Part shown: in pieces, positions 603 to 25,348 of the stretch | How positions within the stretch are numbered: position 1 is the stretch's first letter | Layout: the number at the start of each line of letters is the position of its first letter | Assembly: GCA_964537635.1 (NCBI GenBank) | Contig: CAZICJ010000004.1 | Location: 11,797 to 75,796 of the forward strand | From: an uncultured Pirellulales bacterium | GTDB taxonomy: Bacteria; Planctomycetota; Phycisphaerae; Sedimentisphaerales; Anaerohalosphaeraceae | Length of the DNA: 64,000 bases | Direction: 5' to 3' | Translations under genes and position numbers: made by a program | Notes under the pieces: model-generated | Told to the model about the DNA's origin: nothing | Seen by the model: the letters and a program-made list of their open reading frames with translations, nothing else | Database searches by the model: none

Positions 603-638
603 ATCGTTTCCTTATCTAAAATCCTATAACCGCGATCC

Positions 639-955: not shown

Positions 956-1090
956 GGTTATCACGCAGCAGTCTAATTCTGAGTCGATGCCGGCATCCGC
1001 AAAATAGGATTTGAGCACCTGCGATATCTGCCATTCGCCGTTTTCCGCCGTCGGCGCACAGCGGATCAGTTTTTGCAGTAATTCTTTCAT
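905..1090 (-). pseudogene. Truncated M20 (ArgE/DapE-like) metallopeptidase N-terminal fragment
   Basis: MKELLQKLIRCAPTAENGEWQISQVLKSYFADAGIDSELDC resembles the M20 first helix/strand; the frame then runs into repeat DNA and stops, with no HxD motif. Confidence 0.5.
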
Positions 1091-2303: not shown

Positions 2304-4193
2304 CTAATCGAGATTTTCCTCCAGCCAGTCGATCGCATCGGGGATTGCTTCCCATGCCAGTCTCTGTATATGGGCACATACAATCGCCTCTTCTTCGGAC
2401 CCGATACTATAACTTTGCGGATAGGGCGGCAATACCCCATCATCCAGGATGTAATCTGCCGCTGCGGGATTGCACTCGATTGCTTTTGCCAAATGCCTGC
2501 GGGCAGTCGGTGTGTCGCCCTTTTGGATAAAGGTCGATAGGGCTCTGCCGTAATTCCACATTGCCGTCCCATCTTCTTTGTATCGTTTGAGCAGGGCGTC
2601 GGCTTCCTGTGTTCGTTTTGTTGTCAATAGACACGCTAAAAGACTTTCCCGCACGCCCTGATTGTCGTTGGGGTTGAGCCGCAGCATGTCCCGATAGTGT
2701 TCAATCGCCTCGTCGATGCGTCCCATTTTTTCAAGGCTTTCGGCCAGCCCCAGCCGTGCGCGCATATAAGGCCGTGTCTGGATGATGCCCCAGAAATGGC
2801 CGGCCTCTTCTTTAAAGAATTGCTTGCCAAGGGTTCGTTCTCCCGCCGCAACTCCTTCGGCATACAGGTCACACGCATCCTGAGGATTGGAACGGGACTC
2901 GGCCAAAATCACATACGCATCCACGCAATCCGGACAGATTTCCAATGCCTTTTTGGCAAGCTGGATTTGCTTGCGTCCTCTGGCCTCAAACGCCTCATAG
3001 CAGATATCCTGTGCCTGCTCAAATGCAGTTACCGGATGCTGCGGCGGAACAGGTTTTCCCACAATATTGGCATTGAGAAAATCCTGCATTTGTTTTGTGT
3101 CTTTAAAATCATGACCGTCCAGAAGACGCTGGATATCCAGATTGATTTTTTCCATTGCCCGCCGGTCCGGAATTCGTCCCGACTTGGCATTTTGTTTTCG
3201 TATGTCCTCGACGGACTTGAGCAGTTCGGGCAGCGCCAGCGTAAAGGTCATCTCCTCATCGAAGGTGCGGACGGTCTTTTGCCATCTGCCGCTGTCGATT
3301 TCAGCTTCGGTGGTCTGTGCAAATGCCCGCAGGAGTCCCTCCATAAACGCTAAAATATCCACCCCGGGCCGGCAAAATTTGCCCTTCGGTTTATAACACA
3401 TCGCCAGCGGATATGCCTGGTCGGATGCGACGGGCAACTGGTTATCTTCCCACAGGTCGGCGTCGCCGAAGGGCAGCTCTTCAATCCCGCCGAAAAACAG
3501 CGTCCAATAGGAAATGTTTTTAACGGCATCACTGCCGCTGCCCGCGGCGAATTGTTCAAACAATTTGACCGAATCGTAAAAGGCGATACCGTATGTCATA
3601 CCGCCGTTGCCAAGGATCGTTGTGTATCGCAGCAACGGGTCAACAAAGGGCGACTCAATCTGAACTAAGTCCATATCGCATAAATACTGCCAGGGTTGGG
3701 CGGCGTAAAACTCTGCAGCCGCTTCGGCAAAACTTCGCATTCTATCCAGCGTGACATGCTTAGCCGAAAACGCATCCGGCAGCAGCCTGCCGCCGGACAA
3801 GTGTTTGGCGAGGTCGGCAAACATCTCATCAAAGCCGAACAGTTTTTCACGATGTACAACCGTGATGCCGGTATCTGCCAGTTGTCCCTGAAGATAGTCG
3901 GCCAGCGCGGAATCGCTGACTTCAATGGTTCCCGGACGATGGCCGGCCAATTTTTTATCACAGGCAAACTGTATAAGACCATCCAGTGCGACGGAAAGGT
4001 TTTTGTGTTCCAGTGAATCCATCGAGGGTTCACTCATTTTATGTGTCATCACATTGACCCATATCGCAGACCAGGGACGGTAGAGTTTTTGCTGTTCATT
4101 TGGCACCCAGGCGGGCATACGAAACATGCCGCCCTGCCATCGCATCTGAGGCTGCAGGGGCAATTGTTTTAAGCGTTCTATCTGGAAATTCAT
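2304..4193 (-). CDS. TPR-containing protein with uncharacterised N-terminal domains
   Basis: C-terminal RPYMRARLGLA...EAIEHY...LRLNPNDNQGVR TPR-type region; 629-aa ORF. Confidence 0.6.
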   Translation of the reverse strand: MNFQIERLKQLPLQPQMRWQGGMFRMPAWVPNEQQKLYRPWSAIWVNVMTHKMSEPSMDSLEHKNLSVALDGLIQFACDKKLAGHRPGTIEVSDSALADYLQGQLADTGITVVHREKLFGFDEMFADLAKHLSGGRLLPDAFSAKHVTLDRMRSFAEAAAEFYAAQPWQYLCDMDLVQIESPFVDPLLRYTTILGNGGMTYGIAFYDSVKLFEQFAAGSGSDAVKNISYWTLFFGGIEELPFGDADLWEDNQLPVASDQAYPLAMCYKPKGKFCRPGVDILAFMEGLLRAFAQTTEAEIDSGRWQKTVRTFDEEMTFTLALPELLKSVEDIRKQNAKSGRIPDRRAMEKINLDIQRLLDGHDFKDTKQMQDFLNANIVGKPVPPQHPVTAFEQAQDICYEAFEARGRKQIQLAKKALEICPDCVDAYVILAESRSNPQDACDLYAEGVAAGERTLGKQFFKEEAGHFWGIIQTRPYMRARLGLAESLEKMGRIDEAIEHYRDMLRLNPNDNQGVRESLLACLLTTKRTQEADALLKRYKEDGTAMWNYGRALSTFIQKGDTPTARRHLAKAIECNPAAADYILDDGVLPPYPQSYSIGSEEEAIVCAHIQRLAWEAIPDAIDWLEENLD

Positions 4194-4337: not shown

Positions 4338-5663
<1,326 letters not shown>

Positions 5664-5717: not shown

Positions 5718-5763
5718 GGACTGCAAAGATAGGATTAGTCGGACAGGAAAGCCTCTTTAATCC

Positions 5764-6273
5764 ATGAATCCGCTGCTCACATTTTTACGATTTGTGCTGT
5801 TCTGCGTGTTTTTCGCAGTCGGCGCCGGCGCGATTGTGCTGGCGCTTCGGGTCGAGCCGGAAATCACGGATTATTATCAAAGTCAGGCTCAATTGGAAAA
5901 AATCATCCAAGACAATGAAAAGCTCAAAAGCCTGATTAGTCAATACCAGGCACAGATTGCTCTGATCGAACGGGAACCCAATATTCTGGGCCGGCTGGAG
6001 CAAATCACATTAGGGCAGGCGCCGACGGCTGAGGACACGGTGTACCCCAATAGTTATAACCCGAAATTGGCCAAAACCGTCCAGCAGGTGCTTGAACAGG
6101 TCGATGGCAGGCAGCAGGCCGAACCGATGCCGCCTTGGCTCCAACGGTGCCGAGAACCCAAATACCGCAAGGCGCTGCTGATTGCCGGCTGCGGACTGGT
6201 GCTGGTGGGATTTATCTTCTTCGGCAACGGCAGGCGGGTAAAAACAGAAGCCAAAAAGTATTACGCCCGATAA
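5764..6273 (+). CDS. FtsB/DivIC-like septum-formation-initiator protein with extra C-terminal TM helix
   Basis: N-terminal TM, coiled coil, then EPNILGRLEQITLG...EDTVY; lies directly downstream of eno. Confidence 0.5.
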   Translation: MNPLLTFLRFVLFCVFFAVGAGAIVLALRVEPEITDYYQSQAQLEKIIQDNEKLKSLISQYQAQIALIEREPNILGRLEQITLGQAPTAEDTVYPNSYNPKLAKTVQQVLEQVDGRQQAEPMPPWLQRCREPKYRKALLIAGCGLVLVGFIFFGNGRRVKTEAKKYYAR

Positions 6274-19913: not shown

Positions 19914-21953
19914 ATGAAACTGGGTATGTTTGTAAAATTCATCATCGTATCATTTGTAGTTGCCTGCGGAGTGTTGATTTGGGACAGCGGTTTGTTTGAC
20001 GCCAATAATTCCAAAGCCCCGCTGATTCCGTTGGCGGCTTCCGCGCAGCAGGCGGAGCCGACGGAAAACAGCGCCGCTCAGCCCGCCGCTGAATCGGAAA
20101 TGCAGGCCGCCGCCGAACCGCTGATGGTCGCGGCAGTCAGCGCCTCGTCGCAAACCGTCGTTCTGGGCGAAGTATATCCTGACATCAATCGCACGGATGA
20201 TATCACAAAATTCAAATTCAAGGTCGAATTGACCACGCAGGGAGCGGCGATTTCTTCGGCGCAGTTGAGTGAGTTTTCCGACCGCGACCCTAAGTCGCCC
20301 AAACCACTGCGGATTATCAATCCGGTCATCTCCGGCAAGCCGGTGTATTCCTGTGCCGCCGAGGCACTCTATCTGGCGCCCAAGGGACAGCCGTTTGCCG
20401 AGCTGGCCTTTCCTCTCGACAAACTGCAATGGGAAGTGCTGCCCGGCAGGAATGCCAATCAGGCGATCTTTGCCGCTCAACTGGGTAAGGTCGAGGATGG
20501 CAAACTAATTGAGCCGATGATTCGCATTACCCGCACCTACACGGTGCAGCCTGGCAGCTATGACCTTGACTGTCAAATCGCGGTGGAAAATTTAACCGAC
20601 AATCAACTGCAAGCCCAACTACGGTTCGGCGGAGCGGTGGGCATCGCTCAGGAAGGCATGGTCGTCAGGGGCAAAACCGTCTCGCAGGATATTCCCAAAC
20701 TCATTGCGGCGTTTATGCTGGAAAATCAATCCGTCGAGACGCGCCTTCAGGATGCAGGCAAAATTTATAAAAATATCCAAAAGGGCAAACCGCTGACGCT
20801 GATGCACGACAAGGCGACAGCTTCCTTTATCTGGGCGGCAATTACCAATAAATACTTTGCCGCTATCCTGCGTCCGGTACCCGCCGGCGACGATACGCCC
20901 GCATGGGCATCACTGGAATCCACACGCTATTTCGGCACGGATGAAACCAAAAAGGGCTTTTGTTCCTTTGCGATGCGAAGCCAGACGATTGAACTGGACG
21001 CCAAAGGTTCACCGCTTGCCGCCAAAACCTTTGCAATGCAGCTTTATCTGGGACCCAAAGACAAACGCACATTTGAAGACAATCCAACCTATAACCGTCT
21101 GGCATATTTTCAGACAATTGATATGCAGTCCTGCTGCTGTCCGGCCGGGGTCATCAGTCCGATGGCGTTCGGCATCGTCTGGCTGATGAATACGATGTAC
21201 AACCTGATGGGTCCGCTGGGCAACTACGGCATCGTCATTATGATTCTGGTTTGCGTGGTGCGGCTGCTGCTGCACCCGCTGACCAAGAGCAGTCAGGTGC
21301 AGATGATGCGGATGCAGAAACTCGGACCGCGTATCCAGGAAGTCCAGCGCAAGTATGCCGACAACAAAGCGGAAATGCAGAAACAGACGATGGCAATCTA
21401 TCGCGAACAGGGCATTACGCCGGTGATGAGTATGCTGCCGATGTTTTTGCAGATGCCCATCTGGATTGCCCTGTGGACGGCTGTCAGCGTCAGCATTGAC
21501 CTTCGCGGACAGGGTTTTATGCCGTTCTGGATTACCGACCTGTCGGCGCCGGACGCCCTGTTTCGGTTTGGGCCCGTGGCGATTCCGCTGCTGGGGGATA
21601 TCGGCTCACTGAACCTGCTGCCGCTGCTGATGGGCGTTGTGATGTACCTGCAAATGAAGTTGACGCCCACCTCGCAGCCTTCGGCGACGGCCAGCCCGGA
21701 AATGGCACAGCAGCAGAAGATGATGGCGATTATGTTTCCGGTGCTGTTTCCGATTATGCTGTATAACGGCCCATCCGGCGTGAATCTCTATATTATGTCC
21801 AGTATGGCCGCCGGCGTTGTCGAGCAGTGGGTCATCCGCAAGCATCTCAAAGAAAAGCAGGAACAGGAAGAAGCCGGCACGATTCCGACGACCGCCAAGC
21901 TGGGCAAAGTCAAAAAGAAAAAACCAAAACCCATGTTCAAGTGGGACCGCTAA
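19914..21953 (+). CDS. yidC: Membrane protein insertase YidC
   Basis: Large periplasmic domain, GNYGIVIMILVCVVRLLLHPL, MQKLGPRIQEVQRKY, LPMFLQMPIW, WITDLSAPD, PSGVNLY. Confidence 0.95.
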   Translation: MKLGMFVKFIIVSFVVACGVLIWDSGLFDANNSKAPLIPLAASAQQAEPTENSAAQPAAESEMQAAAEPLMVAAVSASSQTVVLGEVYPDINRTDDITKFKFKVELTTQGAAISSAQLSEFSDRDPKSPKPLRIINPVISGKPVYSCAAEALYLAPKGQPFAELAFPLDKLQWEVLPGRNANQAIFAAQLGKVEDGKLIEPMIRITRTYTVQPGSYDLDCQIAVENLTDNQLQAQLRFGGAVGIAQEGMVVRGKTVSQDIPKLIAAFMLENQSVETRLQDAGKIYKNIQKGKPLTLMHDKATASFIWAAITNKYFAAILRPVPAGDDTPAWASLESTRYFGTDETKKGFCSFAMRSQTIELDAKGSPLAAKTFAMQLYLGPKDKRTFEDNPTYNRLAYFQTIDMQSCCCPAGVISPMAFGIVWLMNTMYNLMGPLGNYGIVIMILVCVVRLLLHPLTKSSQVQMMRMQKLGPRIQEVQRKYADNKAEMQKQTMAIYREQGITPVMSMLPMFLQMPIWIALWTAVSVSIDLRGQGFMPFWITDLSAPDALFRFGPVAIPLLGDIGSLNLLPLLMGVVMYLQMKLTPTSQPSATASPEMAQQQKMMAIMFPVLFPIMLYNGPSGVNLYIMSSMAAGVVEQWVIRKHLKEKQEQEEAGTIPTTAKLGKVKKKKPKPMFKWDR

Positions 21954-21984
21954 ATACATCAGTCCGGAATCGGGTGTCTATACG

Positions 21985-22668
21985 ATGACCGCTTTTGTAA
22001 TCACAATCGATGGGCCTGCCGGCGTCGGCAAAAGTACGATTGCCCGGCTTCTGGCAAACCGCTTGGATGCGGTGTTTCTCGACACCGGCGCGATGTACCG
22101 CGCGGTTACACTGGCCGCCGTGCGGCGGAAGATTGACCCTGCCGATACTGCGGCGGTGCTGGCGATGATGCGGCAGCGCCGGTTTGAATTTCACGCTCAG
22201 GCAGATGCAATGCGTGTGTTCATCGACGGCCAGGACTGCACAGCCGACATCCGCGACCCCGATATCACCGCCCGAGTCAAACCAATTGCCGCTGCGGCGC
22301 TGCTGCGCGAGCAGTTGGTGCAGATGCAGCGGGCATTTGCCGCACAATACCCCCGCATTGTTACAGAAGGACGCGACCAGGGAACGGTCGTTTTTCCGGA
22401 TGCGGCGGTCAAACTCTTTTTGGTTGCCGACCCTGCCGAACGGGCGCGCCGCCGGCACAGCGATCTGGTCGCTGCCGGCAAAGATAGCACGCTGGAGCAG
22501 GTTTTATGCGACCAGCAGAGCCGCGATGAATCCGATTGCAGCCGCACCGTCGGTCCGCTGAAACCCGCGCCCGATTGTTTGATTGTCGATACAACCTCTA
22601 TCACCGTTCAACAGGTTATTGAGACCCTCGAAGCCTATGTCCGAACAAAAATCCACTCTGCGAACTGA
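21985..22668 (+). CDS. cmk: Cytidylate kinase
   Basis: ITIDGPAGVGKST, LDTGAMYRA, VTEGRDQGTVVFPDA. Confidence 0.95.
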   Translation: MTAFVITIDGPAGVGKSTIARLLANRLDAVFLDTGAMYRAVTLAAVRRKIDPADTAAVLAMMRQRRFEFHAQADAMRVFIDGQDCTADIRDPDITARVKPIAAAALLREQLVQMQRAFAAQYPRIVTEGRDQGTVVFPDAAVKLFLVADPAERARRRHSDLVAAGKDSTLEQVLCDQQSRDESDCSRTVGPLKPAPDCLIVDTTSITVQQVIETLEAYVRTKIHSAN

Positions 22669-23350
22669 ACTGCACGACAGCATCCCAAAATGGCTGTGGT
22701 ATTTATTCTGCCGAACCCTATCGGTCGGCGTCGTATCGCTGCTGTACCGCGTCAAGGTCTATAATCGCAGTGCCGTTCCCAAACAAGGCCCCGTGCTGGT
22801 TGTCAGCAACCACCAGAGTTTCTTTGACCCGATGTTCAGTCAGAACTGGGTCTGGCGGCCGTTTTATTTCGTCCCGCGCGATACCCTGCTGGATGTTCGT
22901 TTCTGGGGGCGGATTATCCGCACATTTTATGTCATCTCCATTCGGCGCGGACAGCCCGACATCGCCGCAATGAAAACCATTATCGAAGTCCTCAAACAAA
23001 ACAAGGCGGTTTGTCTTTACCCCGAAGGCACTCGTACCGCCGACGGCAGAATCGGCGTCATCAAGCCCGGCTTTGGACTTATCAGCCGGCGTACCGGAGC
23101 GACTATTGTGCCGGTCGTCATCGACGGCATCTTTGAGGCCTGGCCGCGAACCCAAAAATACCCCAAACTCTTCGGCAAGGTCGGCGTGATGTATGGCGAT
23201 CCCATCTCGACCGAACATATCAAGATGCTTTCGGATGAGCAGTTTGCCGCCGAATTGACACGGATTATGCGCGATATCCAGGCAGACCTGCGCGGCCAGC
23301 TCAACAAGAAACCCTATATTTACGACAAAATCCCCCCGATATTTTTGTAA
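22637..23350 (+). CDS. plsC: 1-acyl-sn-glycerol-3-phosphate acyltransferase (PlsC family)
   Basis: SNHQSFFDP, YPEGTR, IVPVVIDG. Confidence 0.88.
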   Translation: MSEQKSTLRTELHDSIPKWLWYLFCRTLSVGVVSLLYRVKVYNRSAVPKQGPVLVVSNHQSFFDPMFSQNWVWRPFYFVPRDTLLDVRFWGRIIRTFYVISIRRGQPDIAAMKTIIEVLKQNKAVCLYPEGTRTADGRIGVIKPGFGLISRRTGATIVPVVIDGIFEAWPRTQKYPKLFGKVGVMYGDPISTEHIKMLSDEQFAAELTRIMRDIQADLRGQLNKKPYIYDKIPPIFL

Positions 23351-23600: not shown

Positions 23601-23747
23601 TAAAAACAGTTCGTTGTTCATAGAAAGATAGAAACTATGAAAGCCAGGCCTCCCATTGGTTGGTCTTAGCGGATACAATGTTCCGCAATACGAGCTGGCC
23701 ACAGGGGTCGCTCAAATAGATTTGAACCTTTAACAAGGAGACCTGAC

Positions 23748-24803
23748 ATGAAGATTGTAGCAATGGATTTAGGAAAAAACAAGACCGTGGTTTGCTATTA
23801 TGACAGTGCCGATGGCGCTCATCGGTTCCTGACCGTCCTGACACAGCCCCAGGCCATTCACGATGCGCTCGTTGCCGAGCCGGCCGATCGCGTTGTGATG
23901 GAAATTGGTTCTGCCGCCGGCTGGATATATGACATGGCAAAAGCCCTCCAGATTACGACCCAGGTGGCCAACACCAATCATGAGGCGTGGCGGTGGAAGA
24001 ATGTGAAGAAAAAAGGGGATCGTGATGATGCGTTGCGGCTGGCCAGACTCAGTGCCTCCGACCAGTTGCCGCAGGTGCACATGCCCAAGCTGGAAATACG
24101 GCAAAAGCGAACCACCATCGCCTATCGTCATAGTCTTGTCGAACGCCGCACGGCAATCAAGAACAATATTCGTGCAATCCTGGATCGTCAGGGTCTGGCA
24201 ATGGCCGCCGGCCATAGCGGATGGACACAGGCAAGTATGGGCTATTTACGGTCGCTGGCCCGTCCGTTGGACCAATGCGAAGTCTCGGATTTATGGCGTG
24301 GGCTGTTATCGGTTGAATTGCAGCAGTATAATGCTATCGAGGCGGCCATCGACACGGTCCAGGCCAAGCTGGATGCGTTGGGCCAGGCAGATGAAAAAGT
24401 ACAGTTGTTACAGACGATTCCGGGTGTGGGTCCGCGTCTGGCCGAGGCGGTAGTGGCTTATCTTGATGACCCTAAACGATTTAAGAACGGCAAACAGGTC
24501 GGCAGTTATATCGGGCTTACGCCTCGCCAGTTCCAAAGCGGCTCGATGAATCGCTCCGGCGGCATCAGCGGGATGGGCAATGCGCTGGTACGAACCTTAC
24601 TGGTGGAGGTCAGTTGGCTGGGGCTTCGCCATAACCCGTGGATGCGTGCGATTTATGAACAGGTTATGCGAGGCACAAAAAGCCGCAAAAAGATAGCGAT
24701 TGTGGCGGTGGCAAGGAGGCTGCTTGTGGTCTGCTGGGCAATGCTGCGAGACAACCGGAAATGGAAAATGCCTGCCAGCGGCAACACAAAGGCTGCGGCC
24801 TGA
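23748..24803 (+). CDS. IS110-family transposase/recombinase (RuvC-like DEDD + Tnp20 domain)
   Basis: AMDLGK, VMEIG, KGDRDDA; TIPGVG, YIGLTPRQFQSG, AIVAVARRLL; RBS AAGGAG. Confidence 0.95.
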   Translation: MKIVAMDLGKNKTVVCYYDSADGAHRFLTVLTQPQAIHDALVAEPADRVVMEIGSAAGWIYDMAKALQITTQVANTNHEAWRWKNVKKKGDRDDALRLARLSASDQLPQVHMPKLEIRQKRTTIAYRHSLVERRTAIKNNIRAILDRQGLAMAAGHSGWTQASMGYLRSLARPLDQCEVSDLWRGLLSVELQQYNAIEAAIDTVQAKLDALGQADEKVQLLQTIPGVGPRLAEAVVAYLDDPKRFKNGKQVGSYIGLTPRQFQSGSMNRSGGISGMGNALVRTLLVEVSWLGLRHNPWMRAIYEQVMRGTKSRKKIAIVAVARRLLVVCWAMLRDNRKWKMPASGNTKAAA

Positions 24804-25118
24804 GAACCCGATGAGGGAGAGCGGTTCAGCAAGAATTTTCTCCCCTCAGGAGAAGAAGAAATAACTGGGCGCGACCGCCCGACTGTATTGTAATGTGGTG
24901 AATTGCGTGTGTGGAGTGTAAGGTAAAAAAGTGAAGTGCTGAAATTTGTGGATTGGCAAGACGGTATTCGGTAAATCCTATGGGCATAAAAGCTCGAGAG
25001 ATAGAATGGATGCCGTTGCAGCAGTTTGAGTGGAACTCGACGATACGATGCCCAATAGGGCCGGTCGAGAAAATCCGGATAGAAGGCTGAACCAATCACA
25101 CAAATTTTTCACTTGACG
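24804..25118 (+). ncRNA. Candidate bridge/seek RNA of the IS1111-type element
   Basis: Non-coding and structured (ggttcagc 24823/gctgaacc 25086; gggcat/atgccc; ggatt/aatcc); contains matches to the junction sequences; exact boundaries unknown. Confidence 0.55.
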
Positions 25119-25348
25119 GGCCTGGCTTCATAGAAGGATTTTAGACAGGATTAACGGGATTTACAGCATCAGGTACTTATGCAATTGTGAAAGAACAGCG
25201 GCTGGCGATTAAGGGCTTGCCAGCGTATGGAATGGGGTTCCACAATAATCAGTATTATATCATAAGAGGGTGGAAAAAGCAAGGTTGAATTGTTGACATA
25301 ATTGTATTTTTCAGGACAGGTTTTATCTTTTAATTTGCAATTATTTTA

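What the first reader, a model, noticed from the sequence alone, without database searches (positions are those of the whole stretch)
24804..25118. Candidate bridge/seek RNA carrying guide-like matches to its own target site
Seen in the 3' non-coding end: AGATAGAA (24999-25006) is identical to the left flank+core (23626-23633); GATAGAAGG (25078-25086) is identical to the reconstructed empty target; AAAATCC (25070-25076) is the reverse complement of the right flank GGATTTT (25136-25142). Stems are ggttcagc/gctgaacc, tgagggaga/tctcccctca, ggatt/aatcc, gggcat/atgccc and ctcga/tcgag. Known: IS110 bridge RNAs and IS1111 seekRNAs base-pair with target and donor DNA through internal-loop guides. Inference: a probably uncharacterised Planctomycetota RNA-guided recombinase whose guides can be read from the sequence and which may be reprogrammable. 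Which match is the real guide is not resolved by eye.
Basis: partly seen in the sequence, partly recalled or inferred. Interest (0 to 1): 0.8.

Follow-up and report, generated by a model that had tools for sequence, protein, structure and literature searches.

The report
IS1111-type insertion sequence guide RNA

Summary
Window 23632-25136 is an intact IS110-family element of the IS1111 type. It has a 351-aa DEDD transposase, 15/16-bp subterminal inverted repeats and a long non-coding region downstream of the transposase gene.

A conserved structured RNA lies at 24933-25112(+). A covariance model built from 99 relatives scores it at 107.6 bits. On that alignment 25 of 32 base pairs show compensatory changes.

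One arm carries an internal loop.
- Its 5' strand, AAAUCCUAU (24973-81), is complementary to the predicted target ATAGGATTT.
- Its 3' strand, GAGAGAUAG (24996-25004), equals the left flank plus core, GAAAGATAG. The single difference is a G:T wobble.

Across 73 relatives with different loops, both strands track their own flanks (0 of 1000 permutations reach the observed match). The closest relative (86% identical protein) keeps the scaffold but has different loop strands and correspondingly different flanks.

Empty sites in four other genomes show conservative insertion at a 2-nt AG core.

That strand binds the donor, not the target.

Verdict: a new member of a known kind, of moderate interest. 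Expression of the RNA was not tested.

The parts
23630..23631 (+). Left copy of the 2-nt core AG. The left target half (LT) ...CATAGAAAGAT ends at 23629.
   Evidence: Empty against occupied sites in four related genomes fix the core and its register. The left junction xxx-AG-AAACTATG is conserved across the family.
23632..25136 (+). Insertion sequence, 1505 bp: left end AAACTATG... to right end ...CTTCATAGA, plus one core copy AG (25135-36).
   Evidence: Ends are conserved across about 130 related elements. Boundaries come from empty sites in relatives. For the window itself they are inferred by homology.
23635..23650 (+). Left subterminal inverted repeat, CTATGAAAGCCAGGCC.
   Evidence: Read directly; conserved in relatives.
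23748..24803 (+). Transposase gene, 351 aa, DEDD/RuvC-like N-terminal domain plus Tnp C-terminal domain, with motif GLTPRQFQSG.
   Evidence: PF01548 and PF02371. NCBIfam NF033542 at 217 bits against a cut-off of 140. D7, E52, D91, D94, S264 and G265 are invariant in the 29-sequence alignment.
24866..24881 (+). GC-rich hairpin GGGCGCGACCGCCC between the transposase stop codon and the RNA. It looks like a terminator but has a weak T-run. Role unknown.
   Evidence: It is kept in the closest relative with one compensatory pair change (GGGCACGACTGCCC).
24933..25112 (+). Bridge/seek RNA, about 180 nt: an outer stem, a three-way junction and two arms.
   Evidence: Covariance model R1: 107.6 bits, E 3.7e-27, the only real hit in the window. 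MFE -65.8 kcal/mol, z -6.1. 32 pairs, 89.4% paired, 25 with compensatory changes.
24942..24956 (+). 5' strands of the outer stem: AAAUUUG (24942-48) and GAUUGG (24951-56). They pair with CAAAUUU (25101-07) and CCAAUC (25092-97).
   Evidence: Helices 1 and 2; covariance-model alignment.
24960..24969 (+). Arm A stem, 5' strand GACGGUAUUC. It pairs with GGAUGCCGUU (25008-17).
   Evidence: Helix 3: 9 of 10 pairs have compensatory changes, 92% paired.
24973..24981 (+). Target guide on the 5' strand of the internal loop (top-strand guide), AAAUCCUAU. It pairs with ATAGGATTT of the predicted empty site. In the occupied locus 7 nt pair with AGGATTT at 25135-41.
   Evidence: Read directly. Family-wide, the reverse complement of the 5' strand against core+RT gives 6.53 against 3.30+-0.13, 0 of 1000 permutations. 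L132 has the same strand and the same right target half.
24982..24995 (+). Small hairpin GGGC-AUAAAA-GCUC that separates the two guide strands.
   Evidence: Helix 4 (94% paired); RNAalifold.
24996..25006 (+). Target guide on the 3' strand of the internal loop (bottom-strand guide), GAGAGAUAG, followed by AA. It equals LT+core GAAAGATAG (23623-31) with one G:T wobble. The AA equals the first two bases of the left end.
Evidence: D2. Family-wide 5.63 against 3.12+-0.13, 0 of 1000 permutations.
25018..25035 (+). Junction strand GCAGCAGUUUGAGUGGAA (family consensus GCAUAAGUUGAAUGAGA). AGUUU (25023-27) is complementary to the left end AAACT (23632-36). It is a candidate right-donor guide, not established.
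   Evidence: Conserved. The complementarity is only 4-5 nt and does not covary in the subgroup with a different left end.
25036..25069 (+). Arm B: stem CUCGAC/GUCGAG enclosing a variable hairpin.
   Evidence: Helix 5: 5 of 5 pairs have compensatory changes.
25070..25091 (+). Junction strand AAAAUCCGGAUAGAAGGCUGAA, conserved across the family. AUAGAAG (25079-85) equals right end ...ATAGA plus core AG, which makes it the left-donor guide.
   Evidence: Conservation. The triplet after AUAG equals the triplet after the right-end CATAG in 92 of 101 elements and in 8 of 17 non-consensus cases. No covariation with the right target half.
25114..25119 (+). TTGACG, a family-conserved CTTGAC(A) motif near the right end. 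It may be the -35 box of a promoter formed at the circle junction.
   Evidence: Conserved. No convincing -10 partner was found, so this is inference only.
25119..25133 (+). Right subterminal inverted repeat, GGCCTGGCTTCATAG.
25137..25149 (+). Right target half (RT), GATTTTAGACAGG.
   Evidence: Complementary to the 5'-strand guide. Boundary inferred by homology to relatives with empty sites.

Best explanation
The finding lies in the right non-coding end of an intact IS1111-type member of the IS110 family (23632-25136). That end encodes a structured RNA of about 180 nt (24933-25112, same strand as the transposase gene) that acts as the element's bridge/seek RNA.

The RNA folds into an outer stem that closes a three-way junction.
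- Arm A ends in an internal loop, which is the target-binding loop. Its 5' strand (AAAUCCUAU, 24973-81) pairs with the top strand of the target across the AG core and the right half. Its 3' strand (GAGAGAUAG, 24996-25004) pairs with the bottom strand of the left half plus core.
- The single-stranded junction between arm B and the outer stem carries AUAGAAG (25079-85). This equals the element's own right end plus core, so it reads the donor, meaning the joined ends of the excised circle.

The DEDD transposase bound to this RNA would bring the circle junction CTTCATAGA-AG-AAACTATG together with the target AAAGAT-AG-GATTTT. It would exchange strands at the AG core and leave one AG on each side without a target duplication.

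Shown here: the RNA's conservation and covarying helices; the covariation of both loop strands with flanks across the family; the 2-nt core, from empty sites in relatives; and natural reprogramming in the closest relative. Inferred from published work on IS621, ISEc11 and ISPa11: that the molecule acts as RNA bound to the transposase, and the chemistry of strand exchange.
For: Protein:
- Pfam PF01548 and PF02371.
- NCBIfam 'IS110 family RNA-guided transposase' above its cut-off.
- Candidate catalytic D/E/D/D and SG residues are invariant in the alignment.

IS1111-type anatomy:
- 15/16-bp subterminal repeats.
- 330 nt of non-coding sequence downstream against about 116 nt upstream.
- The GL-P----SG motif.

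RNA:
- Covariance-model hit of 107.6 bits, unique in the window. [quoted passage not shown]
- 32 pairs are 89.4% paired, against 81.1% in shuffles and 28-46% in slid controls. 25 pairs have compensatory changes.
- z -6.1 for the fold.

Guides:
- In 73 elements with distinct loops, the 3' strand against LT+core gives a mean longest match of 5.63 against 3.12+-0.13. The reverse complement of the 5' strand against core+RT gives 6.53 against 3.30+-0.13. No permutation out of 1000 reaches either value.
- Window guides match the predicted target 9 of 9, and 9 of 9 counting one G:T wobble.
- The closest relative (86% aa, L161-165) has the same scaffold but loop strands UGGUUGC and ACGAG, with flanks AG-CAACCAG and AACG-AG.
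- L132 shares the window's 5' strand and its right target half, but differs in the 3' strand and the left target half.

Core: empty sites in four genomes.

Donor strand: covaries with the right end and core in variant subgroups (ATAGGAG, ATAGAGG, ATAGAAA).

Agreement with the literature: the top-strand match lies 5' of the bottom-strand match and the two overlap in the target, as reported for IS1111-type seekRNAs (PMC11187229). Donor-binding bases lie in a multiloop, as noted for IS1111 orthologues (PMC11208160).
Against: - There are no expression data, and no convincing promoter for the RNA. A terminator-like hairpin (24866-81) sits between the transposase gene and the RNA.
- The uninterrupted allele of this locus was not found, so the window's target and core register rest on homology.
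- The window's 5'-strand guide sits one base out of register compared with most relatives. L082 shares the window's register.
- A right-donor guide could not be identified.
- Only one copy is present in the 64-kb window, so there is no direct sign of recent activity here.
- Rfam has no matching family.
Confidence: 0.88

Rival explanations
1. One reading: the target guides are AAAATCC (25070-76, right flank) and GATAGAAGG (25078-86, spanning the empty site), lying next to each other near the 3' end of the RNA.
For: Both matches exist. The order, top-strand match 5' of bottom-strand match, would also fit the IS1111 rule.
Against: This stretch is conserved across elements with unrelated targets. 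The 25070-77 segment does not covary with right flanks (2.92 against 3.02; 903 of 1000 permutations score at least as high). The closest relative has AAAUUCU there, while its right target half is CAACCAG. L012 has AAAUCC with an unrelated flank. GATAGAAGG is unchanged in L161 although the base after its core differs. The empty-site reconstruction behind this reading is contradicted by the empty sites in relatives.
Confidence: 0.04
2. The conserved 3' region acts as DNA rather than RNA. It would hold transposase-binding sites, a junction promoter and subterminal repeats, with DNA-DNA guide pairing of the kind used by IS200/IS605.
For: The last 45 bp or so (CTTGAC... and the inverted repeat) are conserved as sequence without covariation, and probably do act as DNA. 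There is no transcript evidence here.
Against: Helices up to 170 nt apart keep pairing through compensatory changes, including G:U pairs, on one strand. That is the signature of a folded RNA. For every IS110/IS1111 element tested so far the non-coding region acts in trans as an RNA bound to the transposase (PMC11187229, PMC11208160).
Confidence: 0.05
3. The element is a dead relic and the flank matches are leftovers with no present function.
For: There is a single copy in the window, and the RNA scores lower than many relatives (107 against up to 164 bits).
Against: The reading frame is intact with all conserved catalytic residues. Both ends and all helices are intact. The guides still match the flanks perfectly.
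Confidence: 0.05

Closest known systems
IS1111-type seekRNA elements (ISEc11, ISPa11, ISKpn4; Siddiquee et al. 2024, PMC11187229)
   Same: DEDD transposase of about 340-350 aa with a GL-P----SG motif. Subterminal inverted repeats. Long non-coding region downstream of the transposase gene. RNA with a top-strand match 5' of a bottom-strand match, overlapping in the target. No target duplication. Natural reprogramming between close relatives, of the ISEc11/ISXne4 kind.
   Different: No nucleotide-level comparison with those elements was made here, and protein similarity to them was not measured. The best plasmid-borne relatives are only 42-43% identical. Hosts are uncultured Planctomycetota, Acidobacteriota and similar. 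No RNA or transposition data exist for this element.
IS621 / IS110-group bridge RNA (Durrant et al. 2024, PMC11208160; Hiraizumi et al. 2024, PMC11208158)
   Same: Two-part RNA that reads both target and donor. A 2-nt core is shared by target and donor (CT in IS621, AG here). Each site is read on both strands by the two sides of a loop. The recombinase has the same domain pair.
   Different: Here the RNA is in the right end rather than the left. The guide order is reversed. The donor-reading bases lie in a three-way junction rather than in a second internal loop. The protein resembles IS621 and ISCro4 only in the C-terminal domain at sequence level (E 3e-12 and 1e-14).
ISPpu9/ISPpu10-type elements that insert in REP sequences
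   Same: Several relatives of the window element insert in repeated palindromic intergenic sequences, for example GAGCCC-AG-GGTTGCTTCAACCC in the CAVYOP genome.
   Different: No REP-like target repeat could be shown for the window element. One 12-of-14 look-alike site at 5725 is not statistically secure.

Membership tests
IS110 family (DEDD transposase insertion sequences) | N-terminal DEDD/RuvC-like domain plus C-terminal Transposase_20 domain | tested here: met
   PF01548 (E 6e-10) and PF02371 (E 2e-25). NF033542 at 217 bits against a cut-off of 140, covering residues 4-337.
IS110 family (DEDD transposase insertion sequences) | Catalytic acidic residues and the conserved Ser-Gly of the C-terminal domain | tested here: met
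   D7, E52, D91, D94, S264 and G265 are invariant in 29 homologues. Their equivalence to IS621 D11/E60/D102/D105/S241 is by position and motif only. The N-terminal domain was not aligned to IS621.
IS110 family (DEDD transposase insertion sequences) | Conservative insertion at a short core shared by donor and target, with no target duplication | tested here: met
   Empty against occupied sites in four related genomes give a 2-nt AG core. For the window element this is by homology; its own empty allele was not found.
IS1111 subgroup | Subterminal inverted repeats of 7-17 bp | tested here: met
   CTATGAAAGCCAGGCC (23635-50) against GGCCTGGCTTCATAG (25119-33). These are 15/16 bp with one indel, set 3 bases in from the left end and 1-3 bases in from the right end.
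IS1111 subgroup | The longer non-coding region lies downstream of the transposase gene | tested here: met
   333 nt downstream (24804-25136) against 116 nt upstream (23632-23747). Family-wide the figures are about 250-295 against about 105-123.
IS1111 subgroup | GL-P----S/TG motif and a transposase of 330-350 aa | tested here: met
   GLTPRQFQSG is present. The protein is 351 aa, at the upper edge of the range.
IS1111 subgroup | Transposase related over its full length to that of IS1111 | not tested
Bridge RNA / seekRNA | A conserved structured non-coding RNA inside the element | tested here: met
Bridge RNA / seekRNA | Two short segments that match opposite strands of the target, change with the target, and have the top-strand match 5' of the bottom-strand match in the IS1111 type | tested here: met
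   Permutation tests. Natural reprogramming in L161-165 and L132. Window guides at 24973-81 and 24996-25004.
Bridge RNA / seekRNA | Donor-binding segments that match both joined ends of the element | tested here: inconclusive
   The left-donor guide plus core (AUAGAAG) is supported by covariation. No convincing right-donor guide was found: AGUUU against AAACT is only 5 nt and does not covary.
Bridge RNA / seekRNA | The RNA is transcribed, binds the transposase and is required for transposition | not testable with these tools
   Needs RNA sequencing, RNA-protein co-purification and transposition assays.
Any Rfam family | A match to a curated covariance model | tested here: not met
   Nothing relevant even at E up to 10. 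Nothing in Rfam 15 matched this RNA.

The most novel reading that the evidence does not exclude
In this clade the two bottom-strand guides may read through the core into the recombination products. The target loop's 3' strand ends LT-core-AA, where AA equals the first bases of the left end. It changes to AC in the L146/L147/L149 group, whose left end starts AC. The donor strand ends LD-core-N, where N matches the first base of the right target half more often than chance (62 of 101 against 47.5+-3.2). That would be a handshake-like device placed on the opposite guide strands from the handshake guides of IS621, inside a three-way-junction architecture.
Probability: 0.25. Interest if true: 0.5.

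Novelty: new member of a known kind. Interest (0 to 1): 0.3.

Why it matters
The result adds a well-defined clade of RNA-guided recombinases from uncultured Planctomycetota, Acidobacteriota and related bacteria. The metagenome scan alone found about 500 relatives.

For this clade the following can now be read straight from sequence:
- the RNA fold;
- both target guides;
- the AG core, with natural GG and AA variants;
- the left-donor guide.

Empty sites and natural reprogramming serve as internal controls. This is useful for annotating such elements, and as a source of orthologues for bridge-recombinase engineering. It does not change the current understanding of the mechanism.

For the scan itself, the lesson is that short guide-like matches picked by eye can be half right. 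The decisive information came from relatives.

Tried and rejected
- Rfam scan at a permissive threshold: only chance hits.
- Promoter/terminator scan: no plus-strand promoter for the RNA. A junction promoter from the conserved TTGAC(A/G) finds no acceptable -10 box in the left end (and inspection).
- L001 turned out to be the same locus from another assembly.
- RNAalifold alone recovered only 14 pairs and missed the outer stem. The fuller structure was written by hand and then tested.
- Right-donor guide: simple complementarity between the 25018-35 strand and the left end is 4-5 nt, shifts in register, and does not follow the altered left end of the L018 group. Left unresolved.
- The look-alike target at window 5725 has a 12-nt exact match to the predicted site, but the local alignment score of 31 is within background (23.3+-4.9, maximum 47).
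- Search for the uninterrupted allele through neighbouring genes: one contig that stops before the element, otherwise nothing on record.
- DNA for the 82% and 70% relatives (P0004, P0007) was unavailable or too short.

Full report
**What is at the locus.** The finding lies downstream of an open reading frame at 23748-24803(+) that encodes a 351-aa protein.
- The protein carries the two domains of IS110-family transposases, PF01548 and PF02371.
- It scores 217 bits against the NCBIfam equivalog 'IS110 family RNA-guided transposase', whose cut-off is 140.
- In an alignment with 28 homologues, D7, E52, D91, D94 and the S264-G265 pair are invariant.
- The C-terminal motif reads GLTPRQFQSG. This is the GL-P----SG form described for the IS1111 branch (PMC11187229).
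- The gene is flanked by subterminal inverted repeats: CTATGAAAGCCAGGCC at 23635-50 and GGCCTGGCTTCATAG at 25119-33.
- The long non-coding region is downstream of the gene.

These are the defining features of the IS1111 type.

**Checking the observation.** By themselves they are weak evidence. AGATAGAA occurs five times in the window and GATAGAAGG twice. The 3' non-coding region folds better than shuffles (z -5.7). That signal comes from 24933-25112 (z -6.1), not from 24804-24932 (z -1.4).

**Relatives.** A protein search gave thousands of homologues, mostly on contigs of about 1.5 kb, as expected for a repeated element. I fetched 79 loci from species-representative genomes and 80 from metagenomes. 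They come mostly from Planctomycetota (Phycisphaerae, Pirellulales, Sedimentisphaerales) and Acidobacteriota. The left and right ends are strongly conserved...AG-AAACTATGAA(A)GCC... on the left and ...CTTGACA..GGCTTCATAGA-AG... on the right.

**Boundaries and core.** Four genomes with several copies also hold unoccupied target sites within the fetched flanks.

| Genome | Empty site | Left junction | Right junction |
|---|---|---|---|
| CBDCYN | CCCCAGGGAA-AG-TGGACGGTC | GAA-AG-AAACTATG | CATAGG-AG-TGGACGG |
| CAVYOP | AGCCC-AG-GGTTGCTTCAACCC | | |
| CAVTGZ | GGCAAGTCGA-AG-ACTTGCCG | | |
| CAWCZR | CGTATG-AG-AATCCCGG | | |

Insertion is therefore conservative at a 2-nt core, AG, that sits two bases after the right-end CATAG. 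Applied to the window, this gives:
- left target half ...CATAGAAAGAT;
- core AG (23630-31 and 25135-36);
- right target half GATTTTAGACAGG;
- empty site AAAGAT-AG-GATTTT.

This particular left target half ends in AT, so LT+core reads ATAG, like the right end of the element.

**The RNA.** An alignment of 109 distinct 3' regions showed conserved blocks separated by variable ones. On a structure-blind MAFFT alignment of 99 sequences, RNAalifold found four helices with compensatory changes in 13 of 14 pairs. A fuller structure of 32 pairs (outer stem H0/H1, arm A H2/H3 with terminal hairpin H4, arm B H5) gave the following:
- 89.4% of cells paired, against 81.1% in column shuffles (0 of 500 reach the observed value) and 28-46% when partners are slid;
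- 25 pairs with changes on both sides;
- 242 doubly changed cells against 74 expected.

A covariance model built on this structure hits the window once, at 24933-25112(+), with 107.6 bits and E 3.7e-27. [quoted passage not shown] These include loci not in the seed and proteins only 37-40% identical.

**Target guides.** Arm A ends in an internal loop whose two strands are the variable blocks.
- In the window the 5' strand is GGUAAAUCCUAU (24970-81) and the 3' strand is GAGAGAUAGAAU (24996-25007). The hairpin GGGC-AUAAAA-GCUC separates them.
- AAAUCCUAU is the exact complement of ATAGGATTT in the predicted empty site.
- GAGAGAUAG equals LT+core GAAAGATAG except for one position. There an RNA G would face T of the bottom strand, a wobble.
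- Across 73 elements with distinct loop strands and both flanks available, the mean longest exact match of the 3' strand to its own LT+core is 5.63, against 3.12+-0.13 when flanks are permuted.
- For the reverse complement of the 5' strand against core+RT the figures are 6.53 against 3.30+-0.13.
- No permutation out of 1000 reaches either observed value.

Individual cases are striking. L003 matches 13 nt and 7+2 nt. L152 matches 9 and 9. L096 matches 9.

Two comparisons bear directly on the window.
- Its closest relative (P0002, 86% identical protein, five contigs L161-165) has an almost identical RNA scaffold. Its 5' strand reads UGGUUGCUAU and its 3' strand AGAACGAG. Its flanks read AG-CAACCAGACC on the right and AACG-AG on the left.
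- L132, only 59% identical in protein, has the same 5' strand as the window and the same right target half (GATTTAG). Its 3' strand and left target half are both different, and they match each other.

The order (top-strand match 5' of bottom-strand match) and the overlap of the two matches in the target are as reported for IS1111-type seekRNAs (PMC11187229).

AAAATCC (25070-76) and GATAGAAGG (25078-86) lie in the single-stranded junction between arm B and the outer stem. Its family consensus is GGAAACUCGGAUAGAAGGUUGAA, whatever the target.
- The 25070-77 segment shows no relation to right flanks (2.92 against 3.02; 903 of 1000 permutations score at least as high).
- It reads AAAUUCU in the closest relative, whose right target half is CAACCAG.
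- AUAGAAG equals the right end ...ATAGA plus the core.
- Where a subgroup has a different last base of the right end or a different core, this strand changes with it: ATAGGAG in L003, L142, L151, L016 and L057; ATAGAGG with core GG in L021 and L022; ATAGAAA with core AA in L019.
- Overall the triplet agrees in 92 of 101 elements and in 8 of 17 non-consensus cases.

This strand is therefore the left-donor guide. It sits in a multiloop, as Durrant et al. noted for many IS1111 orthologues (PMC11208160). A right-donor guide could not be pinned down. AGUUU (25023-27) is complementary to the first five bases of the left end, but the match is short and does not covary.

**Mechanism, by analogy.** In IS621 the recombinase-RNA complex pairs one loop with the target and the other with the donor. 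The donor is the joined ends of the excised circle. Strands are exchanged at the core through a serine-linked intermediate (PMC11208160, PMC11208158). In ISEc11, ISPa11 and ISKpn4 the downstream non-coding region yields RNAs of about 80-150 nt that co-purify with the transposase and are needed for circle formation and insertion (PMC11187229). The anatomy here fits this scheme point by point. The RNA's existence in the cell, its ends and its promoter remain untested. No plus-strand promoter was found, and a GC-rich hairpin lies between the gene and the RNA.

**Comparison and novelty.** The element is a new member of a known kind.
- At sequence level the protein resembles the solved IS621 and ISCro4 transposases only in the C-terminal domain.
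- It is at most 43% identical to anything in the plasmid collection.
- Database annotation already calls relatives RNA-guided transposases.
- The published survey predicted bridge RNAs in 93% of IS1111 elements (PMC11208160).

What this analysis adds is a tested structure and guide map for this clade, a corrected target for the window element, and two small leads. One is handshake-like positions on the bottom-strand guides. The other is a one-base flexibility in the register of the top-strand guide.

**Limits.**
- The window's own empty site was not found.
- The permutation tests ignore phylogenetic relatedness. The reprogramming seen between close relatives argues against that as an explanation.
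- The host phylum of the window was not tested directly.

Noticed in passing
window 5725-5738 (+): AAAGATAGGATTAG matches the predicted empty target AAAGATAGGATTTT over its first 12 bases. It lies in the intergenic gap between ORFs 4353-5663 and 5764-6273, just after a terminator-like hairpin. It may be an unoccupied second target. However, the wider local alignment score is within background.
   Followed up: partly
window 619-627 (-) and 1004-1012 (+): Two further exact copies of ATAGGATTT, the complement of the top-strand guide. That makes 3 in the window against 0.57 expected. They could be candidate half-sites or chance.
   Followed up: no
L121:1985-2040 and L126:1400-1455: Two related elements, in different flanks, carry a tandem duplication of the last 27 bp of the right end (GCTTGACAGGCCTGGCTTCATAGAAG twice). 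The true right target half, the one matching the RNA guide, follows the second copy.
   Followed up: partly
L003:2101-2287 (+) and 3572-3758 (-): Two copies of the element lie tail to tail within 4.5 kb of one Phycisphaeraceae contig. This could be a composite arrangement.
   Followed up: no
many loci, e.g. L154, L139, L098, L100 (flanks listed): A large share of the relatives sit in arrays of short repeats of the CCACAGAG / CACGAAG / CGCAAAG type on both sides, for example AGCCACAGAG-AG-GTCACAGAGG. Their guides are tuned to these repeats. What the repeats are is unknown.
   Followed up: no
window 24866-24881 (+): A GC-rich hairpin between the transposase stop codon and the RNA. It is kept in the closest relative with one compensatory pair change (GGGCGCGACCGCCC against GGGCACGACTGCCC). 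It could be a terminator, a processing site or a stabiliser.
   Followed up: partly
window 23748-24800 (protein residues 128-260): A weak, sub-threshold NCBIfam match to the TIGR-Tas RNA-guided endonuclease family (E 1e-5, 25 bits against a cut-off of 100).
   Followed up: no
window 19914-23350: The upstream neighbours are housekeeping genes: a YidC-type membrane insertase, cytidylate kinase and an acyltransferase (Pfam labels). The element therefore sits in an ordinary chromosomal intergenic region, not in a mobile island.
   Followed up: partly
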